IMG/VR virus record: IMGVR_UViG_3300034251_000009
Location: 1-55,564 of that record
Source of the DNA: a virus
Lineage: Duplodnaviria > Caudoviricetes
DNA: 55,564 bases
Strand: one strand, 5' to 3'
The stretch's first letter is position 1. Each line of letters opens with the position of its first letter. The notes below the pieces were generated by a model. It saw only the letters and a program-made list of their open reading frames with translations. It made no database searches and was not told the origin of the DNA. Made by a program: the position numbers and the translations under genes. This document shows positions 2,163-53,955 of the stretch, in pieces.

Positions 2163-3008
2163 TCAGATGACGCGGCGGGCGTGGTCGTGCAGGTCTTCGA
2201 ACTGGCGCCGGTAGCCGGCCCAGAACGCACCGCGGGGCGTGTGCGGGATCTCGTAGATCGTGGACTCGTGGCCTTCCCACTTCGCGTCGAAGGACGACAC
2301 CCAGGCCAGGTCGTCGATCCGGAAGTACCGCCACACGGGCACGCGGTCGTAGAGGCTCACCTCCAGGTCGACGTTCGGGGCGAGCTCGCGGACCTCTTCG
2401 AGCCGGGCCAGCGCCAGTTGGATGCCTGCGGCGAACGAGGCTGGCGATTCGCCAATCTCCGATGCGCGTCGCCGGGCGGCGTCGCTCTCCGGTTCGAGCA
2501 GCAGGACGCGTACTTGCAAGGGCTTTTTGCGGGCGAGCAGCGACGGGCGTAGCAGGCTGTCGTTCAGCCCGATGATGCCGAGGGCGCGTACGGCCAGGAT
2601 GTCTAGCTGGCTGGCGTCGCTGGCACGCCGTCGGATCTCAGCGACGACTGGCCCCTGGTGGGGATAGTGCCGGGTGATCTCGGTAGTGCCGCTGGCGTAC
2701 TTGCTGTTGGGGTTACGAGGCGAGAGCCCGAGGGCCATTCTGCACAGGTCCGGCATGTTGAGTCCGTCAGCGATTCTCGTGAGGACGTCGAGCTGGGTTA
2801 CGGCCTTTTTCCCGTTGATGATCTCGCTGATTCGACCTTGGGTGATGCCGGTTGCCCCGGCTATCCGCAGCTGGCTCGCGCCGCCGTACTGCTGAGCGAA
2901 CTTCAGCAGGCCAGACACGTCGCGGTTGCGGATGATCTCAGCGGTCTCGGGTCTTTGCCACGCCCAGTCGGCGATGCGTATCTGGTCGTGGAGCGACGCT
3001 ACGGACAA
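2163..3008 (-). CDS. XRE-family HTH regulator with C-terminal DUF5919-like domain
   Basis: SQLRIAGATGITQGRISEIING HTH; VRVLLLEP..RASE, LYDRVPVWRYFRIDD C-terminal pattern. Confidence 0.8.
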   Translation of the reverse strand: MSVASLHDQIRIADWAWQRPETAEIIRNRDVSGLLKFAQQYGGASQLRIAGATGITQGRISEIINGKKAVTQLDVLTRIADGLNMPDLCRMALGLSPRNPNSKYASGTTEITRHYPHQGPVVAEIRRRASDASQLDILAVRALGIIGLNDSLLRPSLLARKKPLQVRVLLLEPESDAARRRASEIGESPASFAAGIQLALARLEEVRELAPNVDLEVSLYDRVPVWRYFRIDDLAWVSSFDAKWEGHESTIYEIPHTPRGAFWAGYRRQFEDLHDHARRVI

Positions 3009-3037
3009 GACGAACCCCCACTCAATCCACTGCCGAG

Positions 3038-3054
3038 TATCTCACCTTGAGATA
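3038..3054. promoter_or_regulatory. Palindromic operator candidate upstream of the XRE gene
   Basis: TATCTCA-CCT-TGAGATA perfect 7-bp inverted repeat. Confidence 0.55.
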
Positions 3055-3110
3055 GCCAGCGGGGGATCGAATGAGGACTGTTCGTTCACGACCGTGGAGG
3101 CATGGATCTC

Positions 3111-3566
3111 TTAGGCCACCACGTCGGGTCGCATACCCAGCTTTCGGTGGGCAGCGTCCATCTGCTCCGTCGTCGGCCGAGCGGGCAATTTGGCGCCCGG
3201 CTCGCGAAGGAACCACCCCAAGAACTGGCGCAGAACGTCTGTTCGCGTCAGGCCCATGGCCGCAGCCGCAGCCCCGAACTCGTCCCAGAGGGCATTGCTC
3301 ACCCGCAGCGATCTGATAGGCGTCTTCCCGCGCTTCTGTACGTTGCGCAGCGCCCCCTCGGTTCGGATGGCCTCGGTTTCCTCTGCGTCGGCAGTGGCTC
3401 GACTCTCGTGCCAGACGACCTCGATACGGGCCTGCTTGCTCCACCAGTCGGCATTCTTCTCGTGGTATCGCCAGCGAGTCATCAGATCCACAGTGATGCC
3501 GACGTAGATCAGGTTGTCCCCGGCGTCGAAGAAGCGGTAGACCGCTGTCCTCTCGTTCTCCGTCAT
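3111..3566 (-). CDS. GIY-YIG-like domain fused to ribbon-helix-helix DNA-binding domain
   Basis: AVYRFFD..LIYVGIT..R..H..E..AI..E..N, then TPIRSLRVSNALWDEF..RTDVLRQFL. Confidence 0.75.
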   Translation of the reverse strand: MTENERTAVYRFFDAGDNLIYVGITVDLMTRWRYHEKNADWWSKQARIEVVWHESRATADAEETEAIRTEGALRNVQKRGKTPIRSLRVSNALWDEFGAAAAAMGLTRTDVLRQFLGWFLREPGAKLPARPTTEQMDAAHRKLGMRPDVVA

Positions 3567-3817
3567 GCCTCTGACACCTTCTCGTCGCCTGCCCGGCTAC
3601 CCAGCTTGCGGTTCAGGGTGGCGCGATTCAGCCCCGTGATCCGGCAGAGCTGGGTGTCAGGCACACCGGCCTCACGGGCCTTGCGCGCCTTCTCCCAGAT
3701 AGCCTGTTCGGCTGCCTGGCTGACCTGGTGGGCGTGCTCGATCGCTGCGTTCACCTCGTCGAGCAACTTGCGCTGCTCATCGGTACCTCGCCAGGTCGGC
3801 CGGATCACGGTTGGCAC
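3563..3817 (-). CDS. Small HTH DNA-binding protein, candidate repressor (Kor-like) of the divergent transfer operon
   Basis: GTG after GGGGAG; AREAGVPDTQLCRITGLNRATLNRKL helix-turn-helix. Confidence 0.7.
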   Translation of the reverse strand: MPTVIRPTWRGTDEQRKLLDEVNAAIEHAHQVSQAAEQAIWEKARKAREAGVPDTQLCRITGLNRATLNRKLGSRAGDEKVSEA

Positions 3818-3829
3818 GTTATCACTCCC

Positions 3830-3905
3830 CTGTCTCGCGGTCTGTCTTCTGTTGACACACTCTCTGTCGGGGGTTACTGTCTCATCAGTAGACATTAACC
3901 GTCAA
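3830..3905 (+). promoter_or_regulatory. Sigma70/HrdB-type promoter of the transfer operon with overlapping divergent promoter and CTGTC repeats
   Basis: TTGACA(3852)-17 nt-TACTGT(3875); minus-strand TTGACG at 3905-3900; CTGTC at 3830, 3842, 3864, 3877. Confidence 0.7.
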
Positions 3906-4003
3906 GGTCAGTGGAACGAAGAACGACCGGAAACGAAGGCGGGCCCGGCAGGTGTGTCAGCACCTGTTACCCGGACCCTTGATCGCCCCATGGAGGCGAC
4001 CCG

Positions 4004-4297
4004 ATGAACATTCTTGCAGTAGATACCTGCCCCCGGTGGTGTTCGGGCGCCCATCTTCCGTCGCCCGACGGCCCCGTCCACATCAGCGTCGACCAGACCC
4101 TGGTTGCCACTTCCCCGTGCGGGATGGAGTCGACGGAGGTTTACGTCGCCGTCGAGCAGGTCGGTAGCGGCCCGGCTGCGGTCCGCCTCGAAGGTGCGGG
4201 TTCCGCGCCGATGACGCCGGCGCAGGCGATGCAGTTGGCCGCGACGTTGCAGGCAGTCGCGTTCGCCGCGGTGGCCGGGGAGCGGGTGACCCGATGA
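4004..4297 (+). CDS. DUF6907-like hypothetical protein
   Basis: CPRWC..H..H N-terminus and MTPAQAMQLAATL C-terminus; RBS GGAGG. Confidence 0.65.
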   Translation: MNILAVDTCPRWCSGAHLPSPDGPVHISVDQTLVATSPCGMESTEVYVAVEQVGSGPAAVRLEGAGSAPMTPAQAMQLAATLQAVAFAAVAGERVTR

Positions 4298-4590
4298 CCG
4301 CGACGCTGACCGAGACGCTGTACACCCGGCCGATCCCGTTCGTCCGGGAGGCGGCCCAGCCGGGTGACTGGATCAACGTGGCGAACGACGACCGTCCGCC
4401 GTACTGGCAGACCCTGATCGCCGTGGTGGCCTGCGAGGACTCCCCGGTCGACGAGGGTGACTGCGAGGGTGACTGCGCGTTCGTGCTGCACCTGGAGGCG
4501 GACCCGGGCGAATACGACGTCGAGTGGTGGCACGTGTCCTGGAGCGAGTTCGACGGCATCCAGACCAGCCTCCCGGCGGTGGCCCGATGA
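4294..4590 (+). CDS. Hypothetical acidic protein
   Basis: ATGA-coupled on both sides, phage-like codon usage. Confidence 0.7.
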   Translation: MTATLTETLYTRPIPFVREAAQPGDWINVANDDRPPYWQTLIAVVACEDSPVDEGDCEGDCAFVLHLEADPGEYDVEWWHVSWSEFDGIQTSLPAVAR

Positions 4591-4736
4591 TCGCCACGTT
4601 CCTGCTGAATTTCCTGCTCGCCGCGGTCGGCCTGACCGTGATCGTGGCCCCTCTCGCGGTGTACGCGCTGCGGGAGCTGGCGCCGGCGTCGCAGCCCCGC
4701 CGCTCGTTCGCCCTGGCCGGGGGTGGGCGGCGATGA
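4587..4736 (+). CDS. Small single-TM membrane protein (49 aa)
   Basis: ATGA coupling; hydrophobic N-terminal helix. Confidence 0.7.
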   Translation: MIATFLLNFLLAAVGLTVIVAPLAVYALRELAPASQPRRSFALAGGGRR

Positions 4737-4981
4737 GGGCCCGTACCCGCAACATCTTGACCGTGGTCTCGCTGGTCTACATCTCGGCGGTCGCCTACCT
4801 GTTCACCGTGCTGTCGTTGCGGACGTTCAACGCGCTGCTGGCGACGGTGGTGGTGCCGCTGGTGTGGCTGGTGTGGTCGTTCTGCCGCTGGTCGGCGCAC
4901 CAGCATTCGGAGCGGTGGGCTCGTGACATCGAGAAGGTCCACGGCAGCCGGCCGGTGCGTCAGGGGGTGACTGCCCGATGA
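4733..4981 (+). CDS. Small two-TM membrane protein (82 aa), Spd-like context
   Basis: ATGA coupling; two hydrophobic segments. Confidence 0.7.
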   Translation: MRARTRNILTVVSLVYISAVAYLFTVLSLRTFNALLATVVVPLVWLVWSFCRWSAHQHSERWARDIEKVHGSRPVRQGVTAR

Positions 4982-6213
4982 CGATCACCGACAGCGGGCG
5001 CCTGTCCGAGCAGGAGATGGCCAAGGCGCGGGAGTTGTACGCCAGCGGGGTCAGGTCGAAGGACGGTCTGCGCAAGGGCCTGGGCGTCGCGTGGGCCAAG
5101 GCAGTCGAGGCTCACACCCGGCTGACCGCCGAGGACGACGAGCGCCGGCGGCAGCAGGTCGAGGAGCGCCGGTCGCGGCTCGTGAAGTTGCGACCACGGA
5201 AGAGCCGGGCGTCGCGTCTGCCGGTCCGTCGCACACCTCTTCCGGAGGCCCCGGTCTCTCCTGCTGTCGAGGCGGTCCCTGAGCTGTTGTCTCCGACCGC
5301 CGAGATGGTTCCGGTAGAGGTGCCGACTCCGGATTCGGTAGCCGTTCCGGCCTCTACTGGAGGCGCTGGTTCGGTGAAGCCGACGACGATCGTGGCGTTG
5401 GTCCTGTCGATCTCTGCAGCTGCGGTCATTGGCGTGTCCGCCCCGGCTTTGCTGGCCCTTTCCGGGCGGGCCGCGGTCGCTGCCGCAGCCGTGGCGGTGC
5501 TCGCTTTGGTCGGCGCGGTCTGGTCGACGGCGACCTTGGCCCGGGCGCTGGTCGCCGGTCGCACGGCGCGGGACGTGGCGCTGGACCTGGCGTCGTGGGC
5601 CGTGGCGGCCGTGGCGGGGTTCCTGGCCGCGTATGGGCAGGTCAAGTTCGCTGAATGGGCGGGCGTGACCGGCTGGGAGAAGTGGCTTGTTCCCGGCATC
5701 CTCGAGCCGGCCGTGGTCGTGCTGTTGCTGCTGGCGAACCGGCGGGTGAAGCGGCGCCGGGCCGGGTTCCCGGCCAAGCCGATCGGCAAGTTGCTGGCCC
5801 TGGCGGCTCTTCTGGGCGGGTTCGCCGTCTACACCAATGTGGTTCACACCGGTGGCAAGGCCGGGCTGGTGTTCGGCGCCGCGACGGTCGTGGGTCTGAT
5901 CCTGTGGTGGGTCAAACTCCAGGACGATGCGGCCCCTGACGACTGGGATGACGCCCCGCAGTCCAAGCGGCTCTCCCGGAAGACCTCCCGGTACCGGCTT
6001 CTGCGCTGGTTGATCCTCTTCCCGCAGACCCGCCGGGCGTGGCTGATCAGCCTTGATCACTCCATCTCCGACGCGGAGGTGGGTTTGGATCTGGCGCGCC
6101 GCTGGCGGCGGTCTTTCGACGAGTCCCGAGACGCCGGTGAGAGTCGCCGTAAAGCTCGCCGGGACGCATCCGTGCAGGTCGACAAGTACCTGCTCAACGA
6201 GAAGGAGAGCTGA
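4978..6213 (+). CDS. DUF2637/Spd-like multi-pass membrane protein with N-terminal HTH-like segment
   Basis: AYGQVKFAEWAGVTGWEKWLVPGILE..YTNVVH pattern of DUF2637 spread proteins; 6-7 TM helices. Confidence 0.75.
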   Translation: MTITDSGRLSEQEMAKARELYASGVRSKDGLRKGLGVAWAKAVEAHTRLTAEDDERRRQQVEERRSRLVKLRPRKSRASRLPVRRTPLPEAPVSPAVEAVPELLSPTAEMVPVEVPTPDSVAVPASTGGAGSVKPTTIVALVLSISAAAVIGVSAPALLALSGRAAVAAAAVAVLALVGAVWSTATLARALVAGRTARDVALDLASWAVAAVAGFLAAYGQVKFAEWAGVTGWEKWLVPGILEPAVVVLLLLANRRVKRRRAGFPAKPIGKLLALAALLGGFAVYTNVVHTGGKAGLVFGAATVVGLILWWVKLQDDAAPDDWDDAPQSKRLSRKTSRYRLLRWLILFPQTRRAWLISLDHSISDAEVGLDLARRWRRSFDESRDAGESRRKARRDASVQVDKYLLNEKES

Positions 6214-6214
6214 G

Positions 6215-6346
6215 GTGGCCTACTGCAACAGGTGTTGTGCCCCGATTGCGTCGACGGGTTGGTGTTTGGACTGCCTGGAGGATCTCGACAAGTTGATGAC
6301 CAAGCGGCGCAAGAACAAGAAGCAGAGAACGACGAGGGAGAACTGA
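6215..6346 (+). CDS. Microprotein 1 (43 aa, CxxC..WCxxC zinc-ribbon-like, basic tail)
   Basis: GTG 1 nt after upstream TGA, RBS AAGGAG; MAYCNRCCAPIASTGWCLDC. Confidence 0.7.
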   Translation: MAYCNRCCAPIASTGWCLDCLEDLDKLMTKRRKNKKQRTTREN

Positions 6347-6347
6347 G

Positions 6348-6494
6348 ATGGCTCTGTCGAAGAGTGCCGCCGAGAAGGTGGCCAAGGAGAAGGAGCGGGC
6401 GTCGCTCGGGATGGGCGATTCGCCGGCGAAGGCGGCCCGGTACGCGCAGGAGGTGCGGGCGTACGCCCGCCGCGAGCGCGAGAAGGGCAACTGA
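6348..6494 (+). CDS. Microprotein 2 (48 aa, helical)
   Basis: TGAgATG junction, RBS GAGGGAG; MALSKSAAEKVAKEKERASLGMG..EREKGN (absent from ORF track). Confidence 0.75.
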   Translation: MALSKSAAEKVAKEKERASLGMGDSPAKAARYAQEVRAYARREREKGN

Positions 6495-6495
6495 G

Positions 6496-6678
6496 ATGGC
6501 ACGCACGACCGGCTGGGACGGCAAGCCGCTGTCCGAGGCGGACAAGAAGTTCTTCGCCCTGCGTCGATCGGGCTACGAGGGCCCGATCGACCAGGACGGC
6601 AACAAGGCGACCAAGGGTGAAGCCGCGGACATCCTGCGGAGCATGGCCCGGCGCCGCGGTGAGAAGACCGACTGGTAA
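6496..6678 (+). CDS. Microprotein 3 (60 aa)
   Basis: TGAgATG junction; MARTTGWDGKPLSEADKKFFALRRSGYEGPIDQDG. Confidence 0.75.
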   Translation: MARTTGWDGKPLSEADKKFFALRRSGYEGPIDQDGNKATKGEAADILRSMARRRGEKTDW

Positions 6679-6683
6679 CCGGC

Positions 6684-6713
6684 GACGGGCCGGGAGTGGA
6701 GTCCCGGCCCGTC
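6684..6713 (+). promoter_or_regulatory. 12-bp perfect hairpin inside the microprotein array
   Basis: GACGGGCCGGGA-GTGGAG-TCCCGGCCCGTC. Confidence 0.65.
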
Positions 6714-6767
6714 TCTATCAACCCCGAGGCCGCGTGGCGGCGGCCCGAACTACAGGAGGAACCAATC

Positions 6768-6890
6768 ATGTCGCAGCAGGCGCTGGATCGCCAGCACGAC
6801 GAGATCAAGGAGCGGAACCGTCAGCGGCGGCTGGCGACGATGCAGGAGGCGGCGAAGCAGGCCGAGGCCCGTGCGGCCAAGCGCCGGTGA
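6768..6890 (+). CDS. Microprotein 4 (40 aa, helical, basic)
   Basis: RBS AGGAGG; MSQQALDRQHDEIKERNRQRRLATMQEAAKQAEARAAKRR. Confidence 0.75.
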   Translation: MSQQALDRQHDEIKERNRQRRLATMQEAAKQAEARAAKRR

Positions 6891-6991
6891 GCCCGTCGCT
6901 GGCGCGCCGCCTGGAGGCCAAGGAGGCCGCACGGCGCGCGGAGCACGAGAAGGCGCAGAAGCGGATCGAGGCTCGGGCGAAGGCCGCCTGA
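6887..6991 (+). CDS. Microprotein 5 (34 aa, helical, basic)
   Basis: GTGA overlap; MSPSLARRLEAKEAARRAEHEKAQKRIEARAKAA. Confidence 0.65.
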   Translation: MSPSLARRLEAKEAARRAEHEKAQKRIEARAKAA

Positions 6992-7019
6992 GCAGGCAGA
7001 ACGGAGTGAGTGAGATGGC
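6976..7019 (+). repeat. 44-bp direct repeat copy 1 (stop + RBS + start junction)
   Basis: GGCGAAGGCCGCCTGAGCAGGCAGAACGGAGTGAGTGAGATGGC identical to 7249..7292. Confidence 0.95.
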
Positions 7020-7194
7020 AGGCAAGAAGTACACGGTCGAGATGACCAACAACAACGGTCAGAAGGTTCCCATCACGCAGGTTCCGTTGGAGGGAGGCGT
7101 CGCCCGGGACCTCGCCGAGAAGATGCGCAAGCAGCTGCCGGCGGGATCGAGCGCCTACTTCGAGGTGCACGACGCCAAGGGCGGCAAGCGCTGA
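7015..7194 (+). CDS. Microprotein 6 (59 aa, ends KGGKR)
   Basis: ATG within repeat copy 1; MAGKKYTVEMTNNNGQKVP. Confidence 0.75.
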   Translation: MAGKKYTVEMTNNNGQKVPITQVPLEGGVARDLAEKMRKQLPAGSSAYFEVHDAKGGKR

Positions 7195-7248
7195 CGGTTT
7201 CCGTGGGTGCCCGGATCGAGCGGGTTCGGGCACCGGTGGTAACCGCCA

Positions 7249-7292
7249 GGCGAAGGCCGCCTGAGCAGGCAGAACGGAGTGAGTGAGATGGC
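7249..7292 (+). repeat. 44-bp direct repeat copy 2
   Basis: Identical to 6976..7019. Confidence 0.95.
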
Positions 7293-7428
7293 GAAGGACG
7301 CACAGAAGGCCACCGGCAAGACCACCTCCGAGAAGGGGACGTCCGGGCCCGAGGAGGTCCGTCGGCTGCACCCGGGACAGCGGTGCGGTACCGGGTGCTT
7401 CCCCCAGCAGAAGGGCGGCAAGCGCTGA
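7288..7428 (+). CDS. Microprotein 7 (46 aa, ends KGGKR)
   Basis: ATG within repeat copy 2; MAKDAQKATGKTTSEKG..CGTGCFPQQKGGKR (absent from ORF track). Confidence 0.7.
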   Translation: MAKDAQKATGKTTSEKGTSGPEEVRRLHPGQRCGTGCFPQQKGGKR

Positions 7429-7580
7429 TGGGCAAGACGACGACGGAGCTCGGCGACGACGGCCGGCCGGTGACGTACAAGTCGACCAGGGCGCGCCGTA
7501 AGAGCGAGTCGCGGCTGATCCCGCTCACGCCGGGCCCGCAGACACGCCTGCAGAGGATCGTCCGGGCGGCGGTCGGCTGA
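7428..7580 (+). CDS. Microprotein 8 (50 aa, basic)
   Basis: TGATG overlap; MGKTTTELGDDGRPVTYKSTRARRKSE. Confidence 0.7.
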   Translation: MGKTTTELGDDGRPVTYKSTRARRKSESRLIPLTPGPQTRLQRIVRAAVG

Positions 7581-7741
7581 TGGGCGCGCAGAACTGCCGG
7601 GTGTGCGCGCGGAGCACGGCCTGGTGCGAGTGCTCGAAGGCCGTCAGGGCCTCACAGGGTCAGCCGACGCAGGGTCCTTCCGAGAACTTCCTGCTCAAGG
7701 AGCTGAAGCGGAGCAAGACCGAGAAGAGGGGAAAGCGCTGA
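7580..7741 (+). CDS. Microprotein 9 (53 aa, CxxC..WCxC, ends KRGKR)
   Basis: TGATG overlap; MGAQNCRVCARSTAWCECSK (absent from ORF track). Confidence 0.7.
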   Translation: MGAQNCRVCARSTAWCECSKAVRASQGQPTQGPSENFLLKELKRSKTEKRGKR

Positions 7742-7875
7742 TGGGGCCGATAGGGCTGTTGTGCTGGCTGTTCGGCCACAAGGACCGGCCGCACTACGCG
7801 GCGACACCCCGGCGGCGGCTGCTCGGAGTTCAGTGCGACCGCTGCCTGCGGGTCGATCGCACGGAGGAGAAGTGA
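7741..7875 (+). CDS. Microprotein 10 (44 aa, DUF1660-like LCxLFGHK..CxRC)
   Basis: TGATG overlap; LLCWLFGHK..CDRC. Confidence 0.7.
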   Translation: MGPIGLLCWLFGHKDRPHYAATPRRRLLGVQCDRCLRVDRTEEK

Positions 7876-8036
7876 TGGGACGCAAGGAAGACGTCAAGGC
7901 GTTCAAGGACGCCAAGGCCAAGCAGGACGCGTACGTCGAGGGTCTGCCGAAGGGCAGCCCGGAGACCGCGAAGTACCTGGAGCTGAACCGCAAGACCAGC
8001 GCGGCGCTGGAGAAGCTGCCCTGGTACCGCCGGTGA
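7875..8036 (+). CDS. Microprotein 11 (53 aa)
   Basis: TGATG overlap, RBS GGAGG; MGRKEDVKAFKDAKAKQDAY..LPWYRR. Confidence 0.75.
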   Translation: MGRKEDVKAFKDAKAKQDAYVEGLPKGSPETAKYLELNRKTSAALEKLPWYRR

Positions 8037-8051
8037 TCCGGTAACACCGGC

Positions 8052-8084
8052 GGGCGCGACCGAGATAGCAGCTCGGTCGCGCCC
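8052..8084 (+). promoter_or_regulatory. 13-bp perfect hairpin upstream of the TraB-like gene
   Basis: GGGCGCGACCGAG-ATAGCAG-CTCGGTCGCGCCC. Confidence 0.65.
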
Positions 8085-8114
8085 CTTCCCCTTGCACACA
8101 GAGGAGCACCCAGC

Positions 8115-9854
8115 ATGGCAGAGCAGAAGGACGAGCACAGCCTCGGTGAAGTGTTGTGGCGTTACGTCGCAGGGCGCCCCCTGGATGGCCGCGACGGATA
8201 CCCGTACCTGCGCGCGGGGGCCGGCCTCGTGGCAGGCTGGCAGCGGCAGGCGTGGCGTCTTGTCGTCCCGACGGCGGGTGTTGCGACTGCCATGGACCCT
8301 GACTTCCAGCACGTCACCGGCGTTGGCGGTCTCGCTCTGCTCGCGGCGGTTAGGGGCCGCCAGCAGGTCGTCCGGCGGCGGTTCCACCGTGAGTACATCG
8401 CCCCGACGTTGGCTGCGATACAGCCGCCGCTGGGGATGCAGGGCGATGGCGTGACCCTGTACGTGGATGCGTCCCTGGGCAACCTGACCCCTCGGCTGGC
8501 CAAGCCGTTGTCGCCGGCGGAGGAGCGTCTGCGCGTCCTCTACGGCGAGCGGATCGAGCCGGTCGTGCGGTGGTTGCCGGAGCAGATACAGCGTGGTCTG
8601 TGGGCGGTGCAGCGTGCGGCACGGCCGGCGACATCGCGCATGGAGGTGTTCCGGCGTCCGGGTGAGCAGTTGGGTCCGCGTATCGAGCTGGTCGCGCGGA
8701 CGCCGTATCTGACCAGTGAGCAGCGGCTGCTCGTGTCGTCGATCATCAACAGCAAGATTCCGGTGTCTGACCTGGTGGAGTCGTGGCATCAGGTCGGCCC
8801 GAAGGTGACCGCCCGGTGGGTCGTGCGTAAGCGGCCGCCGTCGACCGTCGGGTACGACCTGGTTCTGGAGCACATGGCCCATCTGAAGGAGTGGGAGTTC
8901 TACATCGGCCAAGGTGCCGGGAACCGGCCGGTGGTCATCTCGCTGAAGGACGACTCTCCGCACATCGCCGTCAGCGCAGGTACCGGCGCCGGGAAGAGCG
9001 TGCTGGCCATGCTCATCGCGGTGCAGATCCTGGCTCGCGGTGGCGAGGTGCTGATCCTGGACCGCAAGGGCTCTCATCGATGGGCACTCGGCATGGAGGG
9101 CGTGGACTACTGCACGAAGGCCCACCAGATGCACGAGGCGCTGATCAAGTCGGCCGCGGAGGCAGATCAGCGCAACGACGATGCCCTGCACGAGGAGGAG
9201 GACTGGGATCCGGGCAAGCGCAAGCTGGTGATCTGCGAGGAGCTGAACGCGACGATCGGTCAGCTGAACAACTACTGGGCGGAGATCCGGGAGAAGAGCG
9301 ACCCGAAGAAGTCGCCGGCGGTGTCGGCCCTGGCTGATCTGCTGTTCATGGGTCGTTCGGCGAAGTACAACGTTCTGGCGATCGCTCAGATGCTGACGGC
9401 CCGGGCGATCGGCGGGCCGGAGGCGCGGGAGAACTTCGGGGTGCGGTGTCTGGCCCGGTACACCTCGAACAACTGGAAGATGCTGGTGCCGGAGGCTGCG
9501 ATGCCCCGGTCGTCACGGACGCTGGGCCGGTGGCAGGTAGTAATCGGTGGGCAGGCTACTGAAGTTCAGGTGGCCTTCCTGACGAACGCGCAGGCTCGCG
9601 CCCTCGGAAATCCGCGAAAAGACCCTGATAGCGCCCTGGGCAGCAATGTCCCTGGGGACGGGGACATGATGACCTTGCGGGACGCGATCGATGCCGGTGT
9701 TTTGCCCTGGTCGTACGAGGCGGCCAAGAAGCGGCTGCAGCGCGATGTCGGTAACCCACCGTCATCGCGCGGGAAGCGGGCCAACGCGGATCTGTACGCG
9801 CGCGCCGACCTGGCGGCGTGGGTGGTCCGGTCCCGGCAGGAGGTTCCGTCGTGA
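8115..9854 (+). CDS. traB: TraB-like FtsK/SpoIIIE-family conjugative DNA translocase
   Basis: N-terminal hydrophobic segment; Walker A AGTGAGKS, Walker B LVICEE, MGRS..AIAQ motif, ARENF; C-terminal wHTH-like domain; Spd-like neighbours. Confidence 0.8.
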   Translation: MAEQKDEHSLGEVLWRYVAGRPLDGRDGYPYLRAGAGLVAGWQRQAWRLVVPTAGVATAMDPDFQHVTGVGGLALLAAVRGRQQVVRRRFHREYIAPTLAAIQPPLGMQGDGVTLYVDASLGNLTPRLAKPLSPAEERLRVLYGERIEPVVRWLPEQIQRGLWAVQRAARPATSRMEVFRRPGEQLGPRIELVARTPYLTSEQRLLVSSIINSKIPVSDLVESWHQVGPKVTARWVVRKRPPSTVGYDLVLEHMAHLKEWEFYIGQGAGNRPVVISLKDDSPHIAVSAGTGAGKSVLAMLIAVQILARGGEVLILDRKGSHRWALGMEGVDYCTKAHQMHEALIKSAAEADQRNDDALHEEEDWDPGKRKLVICEELNATIGQLNNYWAEIREKSDPKKSPAVSALADLLFMGRSAKYNVLAIAQMLTARAIGGPEARENFGVRCLARYTSNNWKMLVPEAAMPRSSRTLGRWQVVIGGQATEVQVAFLTNAQARALGNPRKDPDSALGSNVPGDGDMMTLRDAIDAGVLPWSYEAAKKRLQRDVGNPPSSRGKRANADLYARADLAAWVVRSRQEVPS

Positions 9855-10102
9855 GTGGCGGCGACCTGTCGGGGTTCTTGATCGGCTTCGTGTCCGGTGC
9901 GGTCGTGTTCTGGCAACTGTCGCGGGTGTCCGAGCGGTTCCGTCGGGCCCGGCGGGACCTACGCGCGGCGCGTAAGGGCATCCGGACGCTGATCGAGATG
10001 GTCATCAGCCGTGGGTGGCAGGCCGTGAAGCTGTGGCTGTTGGTCACCGCCGTCCTAGGCGTCGTTGTCGCCGCCTGGCTCGGCAGCCGATCCGGCAAGT
10101 AA
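9851..10102 (+). CDS. Two-TM membrane protein coupled to TraB
   Basis: GTGA overlap; two hydrophobic helices around a basic loop. Confidence 0.75.
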   Translation: MSGGDLSGFLIGFVSGAVVFWQLSRVSERFRRARRDLRAARKGIRTLIEMVISRGWQAVKLWLLVTAVLGVVVAAWLGSRSGK

Positions 10103-10131
10103 GAGAAGGTCGAGAAGCGCTGACCCACGAC

Positions 10132-10176
10132 AAAAGGGCCCCGCCCCACGCCGGAGAAGGCATAGGGCGGGGCTTT
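10132..10176 (-). terminator. Intrinsic terminator between converging late and transfer operons
   Basis: Minus strand GCCCCGCCCTATGCC-TTCTCC-GGCGTGGGGCGGGGC then CCTTTT; T-run on the plus side too. Confidence 0.8.
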
Positions 10177-10258
10177 GATCTCTATCTCTGCTGGTCAGAT
10201 AGGCAAAGCCGCTGAGAGCGCCGCTGAGCCAAGATCTGGGCAGGCCTGGGGTGATGGG

Positions 10259-10612
10259 CTACGCCCGATCGGCGGTGAAGGCCCGCTGAGCGGCCGCCGA
10301 GGCGCCGACGGGCTTCCACAGCCCGAAGTGCACGACGGCCGCGATCGCGAAGTTGACGGCGATGCTGATGGCCACCGGTACGAGCGCGAAGTCCACCGCG
10401 GTGTTCTCGGCCTGGAGCCACGCCTCGAGGAAACTCTTGATCGCGGCGGCGGCGAGCAGCAGCACGGCCTTGACGCCGGGGCTGGTCGTCCGGGTGGTGA
10501 CGATCCCGACGAGCAGCGGGAGCAGCACGGTGACGGCGAGGCTGAGCAGGCCGCTGATGCTGGACGGGTCGAAGCCGTAGACGGGCAGAGCGGGGATGTC
10601 GGACTCGGTCAT
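10259..10612 (-). CDS. Putative holin
   Basis: 117 aa, three TM helices, LPLLVGIVT..HFGLWKP pattern of actinophage holins. Confidence 0.7.
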   Translation of the reverse strand: MTESDIPALPVYGFDPSSISGLLSLAVTVLLPLLVGIVTTRTTSPGVKAVLLLAAAAIKSFLEAWLQAENTAVDFALVPVAISIAVNFAIAAVVHFGLWKPVGASAAAQRAFTADRA

Positions 10613-10698
10613 GACGGTGCTCCGATCTTGGAATTCAAGGGGACGGCCCGAAACCTGAATTCGGAGCCGGACGGTTCAGGCCGACGTACATTCGCCGG

Positions 10699-11028
10699 AT
10701 GGACCGGATCGACCTGACGCACGAGTTCGGCGTCGACCGGCAGCGGGCCTGGCGGGACCGGCCCACCGCGGCGTCAAACCTGCAGCGGGTGGTGTTCGGC
10801 CGGCTGGCTGACGGCCGCTGGTTCGCCGATGCCGGCGACCGCGAGGGCGCGTACGTGTTCAACGCCGACGAGCGTGGCGAGCAGCTGGCGTTGCGGCTGG
10901 CGTACCGGTGGATGCGCGAGTCGGGCCGGCGGTGGTTCGCGACGCCGGCGGCGTACGACAACCGGTCGGAGCCGGTCGACGGGTTGCCCTGGGTGCGCCG
11001 CGGCGGTGAGTGGTTCCTCGAGGACTGA
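10699..11028 (+). CDS. Hypothetical moron protein (probably leaderless)
   Basis: TACATT -10 box 6 nt before ATG; antisense to late operon. Confidence 0.7.
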   Translation: MDRIDLTHEFGVDRQRAWRDRPTAASNLQRVVFGRLADGRWFADAGDREGAYVFNADERGEQLALRLAYRWMRESGRRWFATPAAYDNRSEPVDGLPWVRRGGEWFLED

Positions 11029-11068
11029 GAAGCCCGAGTCGGCGTACGAGGGGTGGAACACTGTGCGG

Positions 11069-11332
11069 ATGACCGATGCGGCCGCCAGTAGTGAACTGCC
11101 CAGCCCGATGTACGTCACCCTGCGCTGGGACCGCTACCCGACCTGGCCATCAGCAGCCATCGGGTCGATCGTCGACAACCTCGACGAGGCGACTGCAGGC
11201 GCTCAGCTGGAGACGGAGAGGGCTCAGGCCCGCGGTTCTTCCGCGCGGTTCACGGTTCACGCAGTGCAGTGGCCCCCGTTGCACGACACTGCCGAACGGC
11301 ACGCCCGAGAATTACACAGGGGTAGTTCGTGA
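11069..11332 (+). CDS. Hypothetical protein
   Basis: 87-aa ORF in the same moron block. Confidence 0.5.
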   Translation: MTDAAASSELPSPMYVTLRWDRYPTWPSAAIGSIVDNLDEATAGAQLETERAQARGSSARFTVHAVQWPPLHDTAERHARELHRGSS

Positions 11333-11365
11333 TCTTCGGCCCGGGTCGCAGGTAGCGTCGCCGGG

Positions 11366-12221
11366 GTGGAGCCCGTGGTGGAGAGCGCGCTGCAGACCCC
11401 CGGCAGACGCTGCCATCAGCCGTCTAACTTATCCTTGCGGTACCTTTCACGCTTGGCGGCTCTCATGCACTCGCGACAACGCTTGCCTTTGCTGTCGCGA
11501 TAGGTGTTTTCAGCATCGAACCTATGCCCGCGCTTACACTCCGTCTTGAATCGGGATCGCTTCCCGAACTTTTCTTCTTGCTTTTCTCTTTCGCGATCGG
11601 CGTGGCACTTTCGGCAGCTTCTAACGTATCCGCGCCGCGAGCCTGGTCGAGGCTGGCGATAGGTGTTCTCCTCATCCCACGGGTGACCCCTCCTGCAGGT
11701 TCTGGCAGGCTCCGGCAGGGCCGGTCGCTTCTCCCACCGACGTCTGCGCAGGTTCTCCTCGCGGCTCACATCCTCAAGATGCGCCGGTGATGCGCATGCA
11801 GGCTTACGGCACAGGTGATCTACCTCGCCAGCGGGCGGCCCCACGAAAATCTCGTACATCGTTCGGTGCACGAATTTGGTGGTCCCGTTGTACCAACTCC
11901 TGCCGTACCCGTGCAAATGCGGACCGGTCCATATTAGGCAAGGTCCGATCAGCGGCCGTCCGAGCACGTCGTGAGCTGTCGGTGCCGGATGAATGATAAG
12001 TCTTGCCGACAGCCGCTCAGCGGGGGATGGTCTATGTGTAGAGATACCAATAGTCTATCAGTTGAATGCGCTATACGAATTGACTTGATGACTACCTACA
12101 AAGACTCAACGCAGGCTTCCTGAACGGCACGACGGTGGTGCACGACCGGGCGGTCATCGCCGTCGTGCAGCGGGTCCTCGGCGACGCGATGGCGACCCTG
12201 GAGCCGGCCGACGCTGCCTAG
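11366..12221 (+). pseudogene. Small gene apparently split by the antisense HNH insertion
   Basis: N-part MEPVVESALQTPG (11366, after TAGCGT -10) and C-part LNGTTVVHDRAVIAVVQRVLGDAMATLEPADAA-stop (12120-12221) flank a lower-GC HNH block. Confidence 0.45.
11416..11967 (-). CDS. HNH homing endonuclease with two CxRGH..NTY..CRxC repeats
   Basis: CLIWTG..GYG..HR..DHLCRKPACASPAHLE..EN; lower GC; true start may be upstream. Confidence 0.85.
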   Translation of the reverse strand: MLGRPLIGPCLIWTGPHLHGYGRSWYNGTTKFVHRTMYEIFVGPPAGEVDHLCRKPACASPAHLEDVSREENLRRRRWEKRPALPEPARTCRRGHPWDEENTYRQPRPGSRRGYVRSCRKCHADREREKQEEKFGKRSRFKTECKRGHRFDAENTYRDSKGKRCRECMRAAKRERYRKDKLDG

Positions 12222-12460
12222 GGTGTTGAATCCGGCAGGGCCAGGCCGTCGGCCCGTTCGCGGACCAGTGCCGAGATCACGCTCGGGGGCAGCGGGAACG
12301 ACGGACCGCGGTCGATCTCATCAGCCATCATCCGCAGTGCCGCGGCGACCCCCGCTCCGACGATCTCGTCGCGGTGGACAGTGCCGAGATCTCGACCGAT
12401 CCGCGAAATGGCAACGTCTTCGATCGCCTCAGCGGCGGCCGTGATCATATCGTCGGCCAT
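12218..12460 (-). CDS. Hypothetical protein
   Basis: 80 aa, RBS GAGGGG. Confidence 0.6.
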   Translation of the reverse strand: MADDMITAAAEAIEDVAISRIGRDLGTVHRDEIVGAGVAAALRMMADEIDRGPSFPLPPSVISALVRERADGLALPDSTP

Positions 12461-12477
12461 GGAACCCCTCGATTGAT

Positions 12478-12494
12478 AGATGAACTGTTCATCT
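12478..12494. promoter_or_regulatory. Palindromic operator candidate
   Basis: AGATGAAC-T-GTTCATCT. Confidence 0.5.
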
Positions 12495-12533
12495 GGTCAC
12501 GGATTTGTGGTCGTTGACGCAGCCTGACGGTGG

Positions 12534-53547: not shown

Positions 53548-53955
53548 ATGCACAAGCTACGTATCGTCGGCATCGGGGCCGCCATCACGTCCGCCCTCTG
53601 TGCCATCGCAGCCATCTGCGCCCACCACTACGAACTGCCGTTGGCCAGGGCATATCTGGTCGTGACCGCTGCCGGTGCGGGGTTCTCGGTCATGCCGATC
53701 TACTGCACGACGGTCGCCGTACGTGCCTTGCGGGGAGCCCGCGAAGAGGTCCACGACATCGTCACCGCGGAGACCCGGGCCCTGCATCGGGCCATGGTCG
53801 TCACCATGGAGCAATACGGTGACAGGAGGGCCGTAGACGCGGTCATTGCCGCCGAACGGCGCCACGCGCTGAACGAACGGGGCGTGGAAACCACCGATTT
53901 GCAGTACGTCGGACGGGTGAACACCGGCAACGTGACGCCCATACGTAAACCCTGA
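53548..53955 (+). CDS. Two-TM membrane protein coupled to the integrase
   Basis: RBS GGAGG; two hydrophobic helices; TGATG overlap with int. Confidence 0.75.
   Translation: MHKLRIVGIGAAITSALCAIAAICAHHYELPLARAYLVVTAAGAGFSVMPIYCTTVAVRALRGAREEVHDIVTAETRALHRAMVVTMEQYGDRRAVDAVIAAERRHALNERGVETTDLQYVGRVNTGNVTPIRKP

What the first reader, a model, noticed from the sequence alone, without database searches (positions are those of the whole stretch)
6215..8036. Array of 11 translationally coupled microproteins between the Spd-like gene and traB
Seen: 1.8 kb tiled by 11 ORFs of 34-60 aa (6215, 6348, 6496, 6768, 6887, 7015, 7288, 7428, 7580, 7741, 7875). Most are joined by TGAgATG, TGATG or GTGA junctions with the RBS embedded in the previous gene's last codons. 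Three are absent from the ORF track and the rest appear only with wrong starts. Most are Lys/Arg-rich; three carry Cys zinc-binding motifs. Inference: a co-expressed payload tied to transfer, for example anti-defence or host-modulating peptides needed on entering a new hypha, Kil/pock functions, or DNA-coating proteins.
Basis: partly seen in the sequence, partly recalled or inferred. Interest (0 to 1): 0.85.

Follow-up and report, generated by a model that had tools for sequence, protein, structure and literature searches.

The report
Eleven tiny genes beside a phage's DNA-transfer motor
A soil phage that also carries an actinomycete-style DNA-transfer module holds eleven real but very small genes in front of its DNA-pumping gene; related elements hold fewer, different small genes at the same spot, and this looks like an enlarged version of the known 'spread' gene clusters.

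Summary
All 11 ORFs (34-60 aa) sit at the stated coordinates. Each has third-codon-position GC of 0.82-0.94 in the claimed frame. Only 1 of 62 spurious small ORFs in the same genome reaches that pattern. No long ORF on either strand looks coding. Nine of 9 tested are called with the same starts in the public protein collection.

The window is a complete 55.6-kb temperate siphophage record, probably infecting Micromonosporaceae, with a DUF2637 (SpdB2-like) gene and a TraB-like gene.

Six ORFs have relatives. ORF2, ORF3, ORF4 and ORF8 recur in the same slot of otherwise divergent elements. ORF10 just reaches Pfam DUF1660. ORF11 has relatives elsewhere. dN/dS is 0.24 for ORF3 and 0.39 for ORF8. 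ORF6 and ORF9 have no relative among 5.8 billion proteins.

Of 30 other scorable loci, 23 hold 0-1 small genes there and none more than 5. A 44-nt exact repeat and shared junctions point to cassette gain.

The closest known thing is the spd operon of Streptomyces plasmids and AICEs: small, diverse, translationally coupled genes. These proteins are all basic and soluble, not hydrophobic. Their function is untested. Verdict: new variant of a known kind, moderate interest. Two other first-reader notes of this scan overlap this stretch.

The parts
4978..6213 (+). SpdB2-like membrane protein gene (DUF2637), upstream border of the slot
   Evidence: Pfam PF10935 E 4.6e-5, 23.8 bits against a cut-off of 22.8. 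GC3 is 0.84.
6215..6346 (+). ORF1, 43 aa, GTG start 1 nt after the spd stop; CxxC...CxxC, basic tail
   Evidence: GC3 0.82. 5 Cys, pI 9.2. Weak match to the C-terminal part of TIGR03826 (20.6 bits, far below the cut-off). Only 1 marginal hit in 151 genomes.
6348..6494 (+). ORF2, 48 aa
   Evidence: GC3 0.92. Exact gene call in the collection. A relative lies directly after the DUF2637 gene of L009: 24/45 identical, E 3e-14 pairwise.
6496..6678 (+). ORF3, 60 aa, member of a conserved small-protein family
   Evidence: 3 relatives among 5.8 bn proteins. L043 copy is 82% aa identical and sits in the same slot. Found in 7 of 151 Micromonosporaceae genomes. 15 invariant columns. dN/dS 0.24. AF2 model pLDDT 80, no PDB match.
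6681..6716 (+). GC-rich hairpin in the ORF3-ORF4 gap (12-bp core stem 6684-6695/6702-6713)
   Evidence: Fold of 6676-6767: -46.2 kcal/mol, z -2.8, 0 of 200 shuffles as good. Palindrome also seen.
6768..6890 (+). ORF4, 40 aa, preceded by AGGAGG
   Evidence: GC3 0.90. Exact gene call. Its relative is the first small gene after the DUF2637-like gene of L059: 14/28 identical, E 2e-8 pairwise. 0 of 151 genomes.
6887..6991 (+). ORF5, 34 aa, GTG start overlapping the ORF4 stop (GTGA); the weakest of the eleven
   Evidence: GC3 0.91. No relative in 39 loci or 151 genomes. No family hit.
6976..7019 (+). 44-nt exact direct repeat, copy 1 (ORF5 end, RBS, ATGGC of ORF6)
   Evidence: family D2, 100% identity, spacing 273 nt.
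7015..7194 (+). ORF6, 59 aa, orphan, bracketed by the 44-nt repeats; ends KGGKR
   Evidence: GC3 0.88. Exact gene call. Only itself among 5.8 bn proteins. None in phages, viral contigs or 151 genomes.
7206..7234 (+). GC-rich hairpin in the ORF6-ORF7 gap (12-bp stem)
   Evidence: Fold of 7192-7287: -49.3 kcal/mol, z -3.8, 0 of 200 shuffles as good.
7249..7292 (+). 44-nt exact direct repeat, copy 2 (relic of the ORF5 end, RBS, ATGGC of ORF7)
   Evidence: family D2.
7288..7428 (+). ORF7, 46 aa; ends KGGKR
   Evidence: GC3 0.89. Exact gene call. Only 9 marginal hits (20-23 bits, several with internal stops) in 151 genomes.
7428..7580 (+). ORF8, 50 aa, member of a family of about 50-aa proteins
   Evidence: 10 hits at E<=1e-3 in 1.84 bn representatives, 8 of them 46-61 aa. 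Alignment A3. L059 copy is 80% identical. L004 3830-3985 found at E 4e-8 by a profile built without it. dN/dS 0.39.
7580..7741 (+). ORF9, 53 aa, CxxC-x7-CxC, orphan; ends KRGKR
   Evidence: GC3 0.89. Exact gene call. Only itself among 5.8 bn proteins. None in viral contigs. 1 marginal hit in 151 genomes.
7741..7875 (+). ORF10, 44 aa, DUF1660-type Cys/His small prophage protein
   Evidence: Pfam PF07874 E 3.3e-4, 21.5 bits against a cut-off of 21.4. phrog_2670 E 0.0044.
7875..8036 (+). ORF11, 53 aa, ends PWYRR
   Evidence: GC3 0.93. A second member of its 90% cluster comes from another assembly (3 of 53 residues differ). A 53-aa relative with the same C-terminal PWYRR lies in L040: 17/53 identical, E 2e-8 pairwise. 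0 of 151 genomes.
8052..8084 (+). 13-bp-stem hairpin about 30 nt before traB, conserved in position among relatives
   Evidence: Fold z -4.4. 89% identical in L005. A comparable hairpin is present in 12 of 15 loci folded. 4 of 8 consensus pairs show compensatory change.
8115..9854 (+). TraB-like FtsK/HerA-superfamily translocase gene, downstream border of the slot
   Evidence: Pfam DUF87 E 1.3e-9 and AAA_10. P-loop-region matches to conjugative ATPases. 46-85% identical relatives in 7 viral and 32 genomic loci.

Best explanation
The segment is a run of eleven genuine, very small protein-coding genes. Their products are basic, hydrophilic and have no membrane segment. The genes fill the variable slot between the SpdB2-like (DUF2637) gene and the TraB-like DNA translocase gene, inside the plus-strand spd-tra-type operon of a temperate actinophage.

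Shown:
- The genes are real and under purifying selection where this could be measured.
- They are packed with abutting or overlapping stop/start codons in three blocks (ORF1-3, ORF4-6, ORF7-11), each closed by a strong GC-rich hairpin.
- The slot is a hot spot of gene turnover in this family of elements: 23 of 30 other scorable loci hold 0-1 small genes and none more than 5, against 11 here.
- At least four of the eleven (ORF2, 3, 4, 8) belong to small-protein families that recur in the same slot of otherwise divergent elements.
- Gene boundaries carry shared junction sequences: a 44-nt exact repeat, and the K(G/R)GKR-stop-ATG tail that precedes unrelated downstream genes.

Inferred:
- The array grew by recombination between related phages and AICEs at these junctions. 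In effect it concatenates the slot contents of about three elements, each block keeping the hairpin that normally precedes traB.
- The genes are translated by coupling or re-initiation as part of the transfer operon.
- Their products act as accessory Spd-type factors: small basic or zinc-ribbon proteins that bind DNA or the SpdB2/TraB complex while double-stranded DNA passes and spreads between hyphal compartments. This functional step is the weakest.
For: Coding:
- GC3 is 0.82-0.94 in 11 of 11 frames.
- 11 of 11 array ORFs pass the codon-position test against 1 of 62 spurious ORFs.
- 9 of 9 starts match independent gene calls.
- dN/dS is 0.24 for ORF3 and 0.39 for ORF8, at dS of about 0.42-0.47.

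Operon context:
- DUF2637 gene and TraB-like gene flank the array.
- Gaps are listed; the three hairpins have z -2.8, -3.8 and -4.4.

Slot specificity:
- The ORF3 relative is 82% identical between a DUF2637 gene and a different 686-aa FtsK-like gene in L043.
- ORF8 and ORF4 relatives lie in a 5-6-gene run between a DUF2637-like gene and a 735-aa FtsK-like gene in L059.
- An ORF8 relative is the second small gene of L004.
- The ORF2 relative follows directly after the DUF2637 gene of L009.
- ORF3-family genes lie next to a DUF2637 gene (L045 above the Pfam cut-off, L046 below it) or a sub-threshold FtsK-like match (L050).

Turnover:
- TraB is 46-85% identical in 39 loci, while only 2 of 11 peptides match any of them at E<=0.01 by tblastn.
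- Slot census.

Junctions:
- 44-nt exact repeat and 24-nt and 19-nt junction families.
- A 19-nt exact junction is shared with L004.
- The tail before the ORF8 start is conserved in L059 although the upstream genes are unrelated.

The hairpin before traB is present in 12 of 15 loci folded.

[quoted passage not shown] They are diverse, and homologues are often not assignable. Spd proteins interact with SpdB2 and TraB. SpdB2 homologues occur on some actinophages.
Against: - No expression data of any kind: no RNA run holds the stretch.
- Spd proteins are described as 'small and often hydrophobic' (PMC2440964, passage), but none of the eleven has a hydrophobic segment.
- Five of the eleven (ORF1, 5, 6, 7, 9) have no convincing relative anywhere I searched. 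ORF6 and ORF9 have none among 5.8 bn proteins.
- Only ORF3 is found robustly in 151 sampled Micromonosporaceae genomes.
- The ORF11 relative in L040 lies about 3 kb upstream of traB, not in the slot.
- The hairpins could be terminators. In that case the three blocks and traB need not be co-expressed.
- The 'TraB' label rests on context and a P-loop match only. Pock formation or spreading is not known for Micromonosporaceae phages.
- The slot census uses my own crude GC3-based caller, which undercounts: it missed both L009 genes.
Confidence: 0.5

Rival explanations
1. Entry payload. The small proteins would be anti-defence or host-takeover factors, made as soon as the element's DNA arrives in a new hypha or cell. 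They would be kept in a fast-evolving cassette bay because host defences vary. Their place beside traB would then reflect timing of expression rather than a role in DNA translocation.
For: - Content turns over very fast next to a conserved TraB.
- Many are orphans.
- The products are small, basic and soluble, some with zinc-ribbon-like motifs, as is common for phage early proteins that bind host targets (general knowledge, not tested here).
- The element is a phage.
- ORF10 falls in a 'prophage protein' family.
Against: - No similarity to any characterised anti-defence protein was found, though no anti-defence library was available (Pfam, PHROGs and NCBIfam).
- Several families recur specifically in the spd-traB slot, even with different translocases. 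This fits a role in the module at least as well.
- There is no evidence on the timing of expression.
Confidence: 0.25
2. Passenger genes in a permissive site. The slot tolerates insertions because translational coupling and the hairpin before traB keep traB expression intact. Small ORFan cassettes would then accumulate by recombination without any shared function, and some may be young genes with little or no function.
For: - Most relatives hold few small genes in the slot: my crude caller found none in 13 of 30 loci (at least one of those 13, L009, was an undercount). So no slot gene appears essential for the module.
- Five of 11 have no relatives.
- Junction repeats show recent recombination.
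- Composition is uniform, purine-rich and Lys/Arg/Glu-rich.
Against: - Purifying selection on ORF3 and ORF8.
- Strong codon-position bias in all 11, which takes time or selection to build.
- The same families recur in the same slot of distant elements.
Confidence: 0.18
3. Not coding. The ORFs would be chance frames in a GC-rich spacer, or the region would be explained by one long or frameshifted gene, or by an RNA element.
For: - All are under 61 aa.
- High-GC DNA throws up many spurious ORFs (one search lists 61 ORFs of at least 30 aa in 5.5 kb).
- ORF5 (34 aa, GTG start, no SD, no relatives) is individually weak.
Against: - 11 of 11 array ORFs against 1 of 62 spurious ORFs pass the codon-position test.
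- The frame of highest GC3 switches exactly at the claimed boundaries.
- Long alternative ORFs on both strands have GC3 of 0.62-0.77.
- Six ORFs have protein-level relatives.
- No Rfam family matches in 3000-12500.
Confidence: 0.04

Closest known systems
spd (spread) gene operons of Streptomyces conjugative plasmids and AICEs, for example spdB3-spd79-spdB2 of pSVH1 (PMC4447253; passages read)
   Same: - The genes lie in one operon with an SpdB2-type membrane protein and the FtsK-like TraB.
- Several are very short.
- Stop and start codons overlap or abut.
- The sequences are so diverse that homologues are hard to assign.
- SpdB2 homologues are already known on actinophages.
   Different: - Eleven genes rather than the 3-7 quoted.
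- All are 60 aa or less, basic and without hydrophobic segments, whereas Spd proteins are described as often hydrophobic (PMC2440964).
- The host family is Micromonosporaceae and the carrier is a tailed phage.
- No sequence similarity to a named Spd protein was shown here.
- Pock or spread function is untested.
Runs of small ORFan 'early/accessory' genes in temperate actinophage genomes (general knowledge, recalled; not looked up here)
   Same: - Tightly packed, translationally coupled tiny genes of unknown function.
- Mosaic distribution between related phages.
- Recombination at gene boundaries.
   Different: - This run sits inside a conjugation-type module.
- Its families recur in that same slot in non-phage AICE-like loci and with different translocases.
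- tblastn of ORF3, ORF6 and ORF11 against 50,697 phage records found nothing.
Streptomyces plasmid-phage pZL12 (Zhong et al. 2010; seen only as a citation and two sentences in PMC3583192)
   Same: A replicon that is both a phage and a conjugative element. Its transfer needs a major tra gene and adjacent genes.
   Different: - I did not read the pZL12 paper or compare sequences.
- No small-gene array is known to me there.
- pZL12 is a plasmid prophage, whereas this element has a serine integrase.
Integron gene-cassette arrays
   Same: A row of small, promoterless, exchangeable genes in one orientation, whose content differs between related elements.
   Different: - 8 of 11 junctions leave 1 nt or less between genes, so there is no room for attC sites.
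- Only three hairpins are present, and they do not flank single genes.
- No integron integrase lies beside the array.
- Exchange seems to use shared junction sequence.

Membership tests
spd (spread) genes of actinomycete conjugative elements | Located in an operon with, or next to, traB and an SpdB2-type membrane protein gene | tested here: met
   DUF2637 gene at 4978-6213 and TraB-like gene at 8115-9854, same strand, with the array between them.
spd (spread) genes of actinomycete conjugative elements | Overlapping or abutting stop/start codons (translational coupling) | tested here: met
   8 of 11 upstream gaps are between -4 and +1 nt. This is also common elsewhere in this genome: 28 of 68 junctions.
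spd (spread) genes of actinomycete conjugative elements | Small, sequence-diverse products without assignable homologues on other elements | tested here: met
   Only 2 of 11 peptides match any of 39 TraB-related loci at E<=0.01 by tblastn. Relatives of four more were found only by profile or wider searches.
spd (spread) genes of actinomycete conjugative elements | Products often hydrophobic or membrane-associated | tested here: not met
   GRAVY is -0.57 to -1.69 and the highest 15-residue Kyte-Doolittle mean is 1.19. No TM-like segment in any of the 11.
spd (spread) genes of actinomycete conjugative elements | Required for pock formation or intramycelial spreading; interaction with SpdB2/TraB | not testable with these tools
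   Needs genetics and two-hybrid tests. One complex prediction (TraB + ORF8) gave no verdict (see Tried and rejected).
Pfam DUF1660 (prophage protein), for ORF10 | Score at or above the Pfam gathering threshold | tested here: met
   21.5 bits against a cut-off of 21.4, E 3.3e-4, residues 6-39 on profile positions 3-31 of 63. This is marginal and partial.
Streptomyces TraB (FtsK-like conjugative dsDNA translocase), for the gene bordering the array | FtsK/SpoIIIE-type motor domain; C-terminal wHTH recognising clt repeats; N-terminal membrane part | tested here: inconclusive
   Only P-loop-region matches were found: DUF87 at E 1.3e-9, AAA_10, and TraD/CedD/TrbE models far below their cut-offs. 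Pfam FtsK_SpoIIIE was not hit. No enriched 8-mer repeat that could serve as clt was found in 3000-12500. wHTH and TM parts were not examined.
Integron cassette array | attC recombination site after each cassette and an adjacent IntI integrase | tested here: not met
   There is no space between most genes. There are three hairpins only. The only integrase found is a serine integrase 46 kb away. No attC model was run.

The most novel reading that the evidence does not exclude
The slot between the SpdB2-like and TraB-like genes may be a dedicated, recombination-driven 'cassette bay' shared by phages and AICEs of mycelial actinomycetes. In this reading each cassette is a tiny gene that brings its own roughly 20-nt coupling leader, and that leader becomes the C-terminal tail and stop of whatever gene precedes it. 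Blocks are closed by the hairpin that normally guards traB. The bay would store a rapidly exchangeable repertoire of basic and zinc-ribbon microproteins that act on the recipient compartment at DNA entry, for counter-defence or growth arrest (pock-like). The eleven-gene array here would be the largest example yet of a previously unrecognised diversity-generating module of dsDNA conjugation systems.
Probability: 0.15. Interest if true: 0.75.

Novelty: new variant of a known kind. Interest (0 to 1): 0.45.

Why it matters
Most Spd proteins, the partners of TraB in the unusual double-stranded-DNA conjugation of mycelial actinomycetes, have no known molecular function. The paper read here says they are too diverse to assign homologues (PMC4447253).

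This locus and its relatives show three things. The position next to traB is a turnover hot spot. Recognisable microprotein families (ORF2, ORF3, ORF4, ORF8 types) travel between phages and integrative elements while keeping that position. Junction sequences are shared between cassettes.

That gives a concrete and cheap set of candidates for testing what accessory factors of TraB-type transfer do: 34-60-aa proteins, two of them with alignable families. It also bears on whether phages use this machinery to spread in hyphae.

If the proteins turn out to be ordinary passenger ORFans, the locus is still a clean example of how tiny genes accumulate.

Tried and rejected
Single long ORF or antisense gene: rejected. 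All long alternatives have GC3 of 0.62-0.77.

RNA element: no Rfam match at E<=0.1 in 3000-12500.

Sigma-70-type promoters: 0 found in 3000-12500. This is uninformative for actinomycetes.

clt-like repeats: no enriched 7- or 8-mer apart from the start-context word GAGATGGC, which occurs 5 times in the region and once elsewhere. The recalled pSVH1-type 8-mer is not enriched near the module.

Homology searches that found nothing:
- DNA of 6000-8200 against plasmids gave one 58-nt chance-like hit, and against phages gave none.
- tblastn of ORF11, ORF3 and ORF6 against phage records found none.
- Pattern scans of viral contigs for ORF11, ORF6 and ORF9 found none.
- A metagenome scan for ORF8 found none.
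- ORF6 and ORF9 against 5.8 bn proteins found only themselves.
- Searches of 151 Micromonosporaceae genomes gave 0 hits for ORF2, 4, 5, 6 and 11.
- The same searches gave only marginal hits (19-23 bits) for ORF1, 7, 8, 9 and 10, which I treat as noise.
- A four-genome search with ORF11 missed the known weak relative in the genome of L040. This shows the limited sensitivity of that tool for such short queries.

Function of ORF3:
- PDB profile search found 0 hits.
- Foldseek of the pLDDT-80 model found nothing at E<=0.001.
- Atlas look-alikes for ORF3 and ORF6 were all below usable scores.

Binding: one complex prediction of the TraB-like protein (alignment A1) with ORF8 (alignment A3) returned 'no answer' (score 0.00 against a mark of 0.32; controls not run). 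It is neither support nor evidence against.

Expression: no RNA holder is listed for the stretch. The two runs laid are DNA contigs.
- They show that the source run's contigs break at the 44-nt repeat and at the hairpin before traB.
- A second study holds identical 151-185-nt pieces, including 7788-7972.
- No joint skipping the ORF6 cassette was seen, which from contigs proves nothing.

Circularity caught: the first profile hit on L004 used an alignment that contained L004. It was repeated without that row.

Supplementary files of papers were not opened. The gene tables of pSVH1 and pWTY27 in supplements might list comparable tiny ORFs.

Full report
1. What the window is. The window is a whole IMG/VR virus record of 55,564 nt with direct terminal repeats. 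It encodes a serine integrase (53955-55415) and a family-A DNA polymerase. It also encodes a primase/helicase, large terminase, portal, major head protein and tape-measure protein, all on the minus strand between about 13 and 53 kb. It is therefore a temperate siphophage. Between about 4.0 and 10.1 kb a plus-strand gene chain holds a DUF2637 protein (4978-6213; Pfam 23.8 bits against a cut-off of 22.8). The chain also holds a 579-aa P-loop ATPase (8115-9854) with DUF87/AAA_10 matches and P-loop-region matches to conjugative ATPases. The ATPase has 68-85% identical relatives in 7 IMG/VR records. It has 46-77% identical relatives in 32 genome contigs: 31 from Micromonosporaceae genera (Micromonospora, Actinoplanes, Plantactinospora, Dactylosporangium, Krasilnikovia, Salinispora and others) and one Dormibacteraceae MAG. 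The likely host is thus Micromonosporaceae, not Streptomyces. Portal homologues occur in the records of L004, L008 and L043 (3 of 8 records searched), so phages carrying this module recur. I call the ATPase 'TraB-like' on context. Pfam FtsK_SpoIIIE itself was not hit.

2. The observation. GC3 is 0.82-0.94 in each claimed frame, and the frame of highest GC3 switches at each claimed boundary. As a null, I took 62 ORFs of 30-65 aa that lie out of frame or antisense inside 14 confident genes of the same genome. One of these 62 reaches GC3>=0.82 with GC2<=0.61, against 11 of 11 array ORFs. The six long minus-strand ORFs and seven long plus-strand ORFs that cover the region have GC3 of 0.62-0.77. 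The nine possible 5' extensions have GC3 of 0.53-0.79. So neither a single long gene nor longer starts fit. Nine of 9 ATG-started peptides are present letter for letter in the public protein collection, which means an independent gene caller chose the same starts. Eight are singleton clusters at 90% identity, and ORF11 has one further member from another assembly. ORF1 and ORF5 (GTG starts) were not looked up.

Gaps from the previous stop are 1, 1, 1, 89, -4, 23, 93, -1, -1, -1 and -1 nt, then 78 nt to traB. All eleven products are basic (pI 9.2-11.6, net +3 to +8) and hydrophilic, without a TM-like segment. ORF1, ORF9 and ORF10 carry Cys or Cys/His motifs. Coupled junctions are common in this genome: 28 of 68 same-strand junctions are 3 nt or less. 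Half of all candidate genes of 65 aa or less (11 of 22) lie in this 3% of the genome.

3. Substructure. The only three long gaps each hold a strong GC-rich hairpin: 6681-6716, 7206-7234 and 8052-8084. Their z-scores are -2.8, -3.8 and -4.4, and 0 of 200 shuffles fold as well in each case. They divide the run into ORF1-3, ORF4-6 and ORF7-11. The hairpin about 30 nt before traB is a conserved feature of the family. A comparable 12-13-bp stem stands at the same place in 12 of 15 loci folded, with different stem sequences. Four of 8 consensus pairs show compensatory changes, and the hairpin is 89% identical in L005. None has a T tract, which is usual for actinomycete terminators (recalled), so terminator, attenuator or stabiliser all remain open.

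A 44-nt exact direct repeat (6976-7019 and 7249-7292) brackets ORF6 plus its hairpin. The first copy contains the end of ORF5, the RBS and ATGGC of ORF6. The second contains a now non-coding copy of the ORF5 end, the same RBS and ATGGC of ORF7. Two further junction families exist. A 19-nt family lies at the spd/ORF1, ORF1/2 and ORF2/3 boundaries. A 24-nt family lies at the ends of ORF6, ORF7 and ORF9, giving the tails KGGKR, KGGKR and KRGKR.

4. Relatives of the single genes. Family libraries gave little:
- ORF10 just reaches Pfam DUF1660 (21.5 against 21.4 bits).
- ORF1 weakly resembles the Cys-rich C-terminal part of TIGR03826, far below the cut-off.
- Otherwise nothing was found in Pfam, PHROGs or NCBIfam.
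- tblastn of all eleven on the 39 TraB-related loci found only ORF2 in L009 and ORF11 in L040 and L041 at E<=0.01.

Wider searches changed the picture for some ORFs:
- ORF3 has three relatives among 5.8 billion proteins (68-74% identity). It has an 82%-identical copy in IMG/VR locus L043, with 93% nt identity over 114 nt. It has matches in 7 of 151 sampled Micromonosporaceae genomes (best E 1e-18).
- ORF3's alignment has 15 invariant columns.
- ORF8 has 10 hits at E<=1e-3 among 1.84 billion representatives, 8 of them proteins of 46-61 aa.
- A profile built without the L004 row finds the second small gene of L004 at E 4e-8 among 755 small ORFs.
- IMG/VR locus L059 has an 80%-identical ORF8 copy.
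- ORF4 matches the first small gene of L059 (14 of 28 identical).
- ORF2 matches the gene that overlaps the stop of the DUF2637 gene in L009 (24 of 45 identical).
- ORF11 matches a 53-aa protein of L040 with the same C-terminal PWYRR.
- dN/dS is 0.24 for ORF3 (window against L043) and 0.39 for ORF8 (window against L059), at dS of 0.42-0.47.

ORF6 and ORF9 have no relative among 5.8 billion proteins. ORF1, ORF5 and ORF7 gave nothing convincing.

5. The slot. In L043 the ORF3 copy is the third of four small genes between a DUF2637 gene (E 8e-10) and a different, 686-aa FtsK-like gene. In L059 the ORF4 and ORF8 copies lie in a run of five or six small genes between a DUF2637-like gene and a 735-aa FtsK-like gene. 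In L004 (TraB 85% identical) four small genes fill the slot and the second is the ORF8 type. In L009 the ORF2 type comes first. So four of the eleven families keep this position in elements whose flanking genes have diverged widely or been replaced.

ORF3-family genes in chromosomes also lie beside a DUF2637 gene in L045 (above the Pfam cut-off) and L046 (below it). In L050 one lies beside a gene with a sub-threshold FtsK_SpoIIIE match. A crude census with my own GC3-based caller covered 30 other loci where both border genes were called. It gives 0 small genes in 13 loci, 1 in 10, 2 in 2, 3 in 1, 4 in 2 and 5 in 2. The window has 11. The caller undercounts, since it missed both L009 genes. In L025, L026 and L034 the upstream border may not be the spd gene.

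6. How the array probably arose. Before the ORF8 start, the last roughly 20 nt (the tail K(G/R)GKR, the stop, and the overlapping ATG) are conserved between the window and L059, although the upstream genes are unrelated. The 19 nt that span the end of ORF8 and the next start are identical in L004. A cassette therefore seems to travel with a short leader that becomes the C-terminal tail of whatever precedes it. ORF6 carries such a tail although no gene follows it directly, and it is bracketed by the 44-nt repeat. ORF4 opens block 2 as its relative opens the L059 slot. ORF7/ORF8 open block 3 as a small gene followed by the ORF8 type opens the L004 slot. Each block ends in a hairpin like the one that precedes traB elsewhere. 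I infer that the eleven-gene array is an accretion of about three 'slot contents', joined by recombination at junctions. This is inference from anatomy. No intermediate was seen, and the contigs laid on the region show no variant lacking ORF6 (which proves nothing).

7. What it most likely does. The nearest described system is the spd operon. The paper read (PMC4447253, passages) makes four relevant points:
[quoted passage not shown] - Spd proteins, SpdB2 and TraB interact in two-hybrid tests.
- SpdB2 homologues occur on some actinophages, where they might help phage DNA to spread.

The array fits that description in position, coupling, size trend and diversity. It differs in number (11), in uniformly tiny size, and in being basic and soluble rather than 'often hydrophobic' (PMC2440964, passage). 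My best reading (0.5) is that these are accessory, exchangeable Spd-type microproteins of a phage-borne transfer module. One complex prediction of TraB with ORF8 gave no verdict. There are no RNA data.

8. Novelty and score. I searched the held literature for TraB/spd/translational coupling, AICE/prophage/TraB, phage/SpdB2/DUF2637, pZL12/plasmid-phage and AICE/small proteins. I found no description of a microprotein array or cassette turnover in the spd-traB slot. I did find the general statement that spd genes are small, coupled and diverse, and a phage that is also conjugative (pZL12, cited in PMC3583192). Supplements were closed, and subscription papers on pMR2 and other Micromonospora elements are not in the library. 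I therefore rate this a new variant of a known kind. A specialist would find the number, the uniform chemistry and the junction-borne cassette exchange noteworthy, but not the existence of small coupled genes next to traB. Two other first-reader notes of this scan cover the same stretch, one on the phage-AICE hybrid and one on repeated junction modules. My results agree with both.

Noticed in passing
window 8052-8084; L004, L005, L006, L007, L010, L011, L013, L014, L015, L035, L043 just upstream of their traB-like genes: A 12-13-bp GC-rich hairpin, followed by a pyrimidine-rich run and the RBS, stands about 25-35 nt before the translocase start in 12 of 15 related loci. The stem sequences differ (compensatory changes). 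It may be a conserved terminator/attenuator or a control site for the toxic translocase gene.
   Followed up: partly
window 1-55564; records of L004, L008, L043: Tailed-phage records that carry a DUF2637 plus TraB-like module recur. Portal homologues (28-42% identity) were found in 3 of 8 TraB-bearing viral records searched, so the module has joined several phage lineages.
   Followed up: partly
L048 1303-1656, L049 1429-1866 (-), L050 1117-1659 (-): The conserved core of the ORF3 family (W-D-G ... F-x-L-R-x-S-G-Y-x-G-x-I-D-x-D-G) also occurs as one part of longer proteins (117-180 aa) in Micromonosporaceae chromosomes. It therefore behaves as a small domain, not only as a stand-alone microprotein.
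   Followed up: no
L049 1970-2443 (-): A PycTM (Pycsar effector) domain protein (E 6e-12) lies directly upstream of an ORF3-domain gene. An ORF4-like 56-aa gene lies further upstream on the same strand, with a 78-aa gene between it and the PycTM gene. This hints at a defence-island or mobile-element context.
   Followed up: no
L004 6076-6351, L043 7670-7909, L035 6670-6858: Small Cys-rich proteins with repeated CxxCxGxG-like motifs lie just downstream (L004, L043) or upstream (L035) of the translocase gene in relatives. The window has instead a plain TM protein at 9818-10102.
   Followed up: no
window 7788-7972 and other pieces between 2168 and 8921: A second study (coded run X2, biocrust metagenome) holds low-depth contig pieces of 151-185 nt identical to the window. 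The same or a near-identical phage therefore occurs in another sample.
   Followed up: partly
window 4004-4297 and L059 1783-2091: The plus-strand operon opens with a DUF6907-like Cys-rich protein (E 4.6e-5, just below the cut-off), followed by small TM proteins. The same opening is seen in L059, so the operon layout upstream of the spd gene is conserved too.
   Followed up: no
window 11416-11967 (-): An HNH endonuclease gene (PF13392, E 1.5e-8) lies between the transfer module and the phage late region.
   Followed up: no
window 10138-10173: A 15-bp-stem hairpin with a T run on the minus strand lies between the end of the plus-strand operon (9818-10102) and the convergent gene 10259-10612. 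It is a likely bidirectional terminator closing the transfer operon.
   Followed up: no
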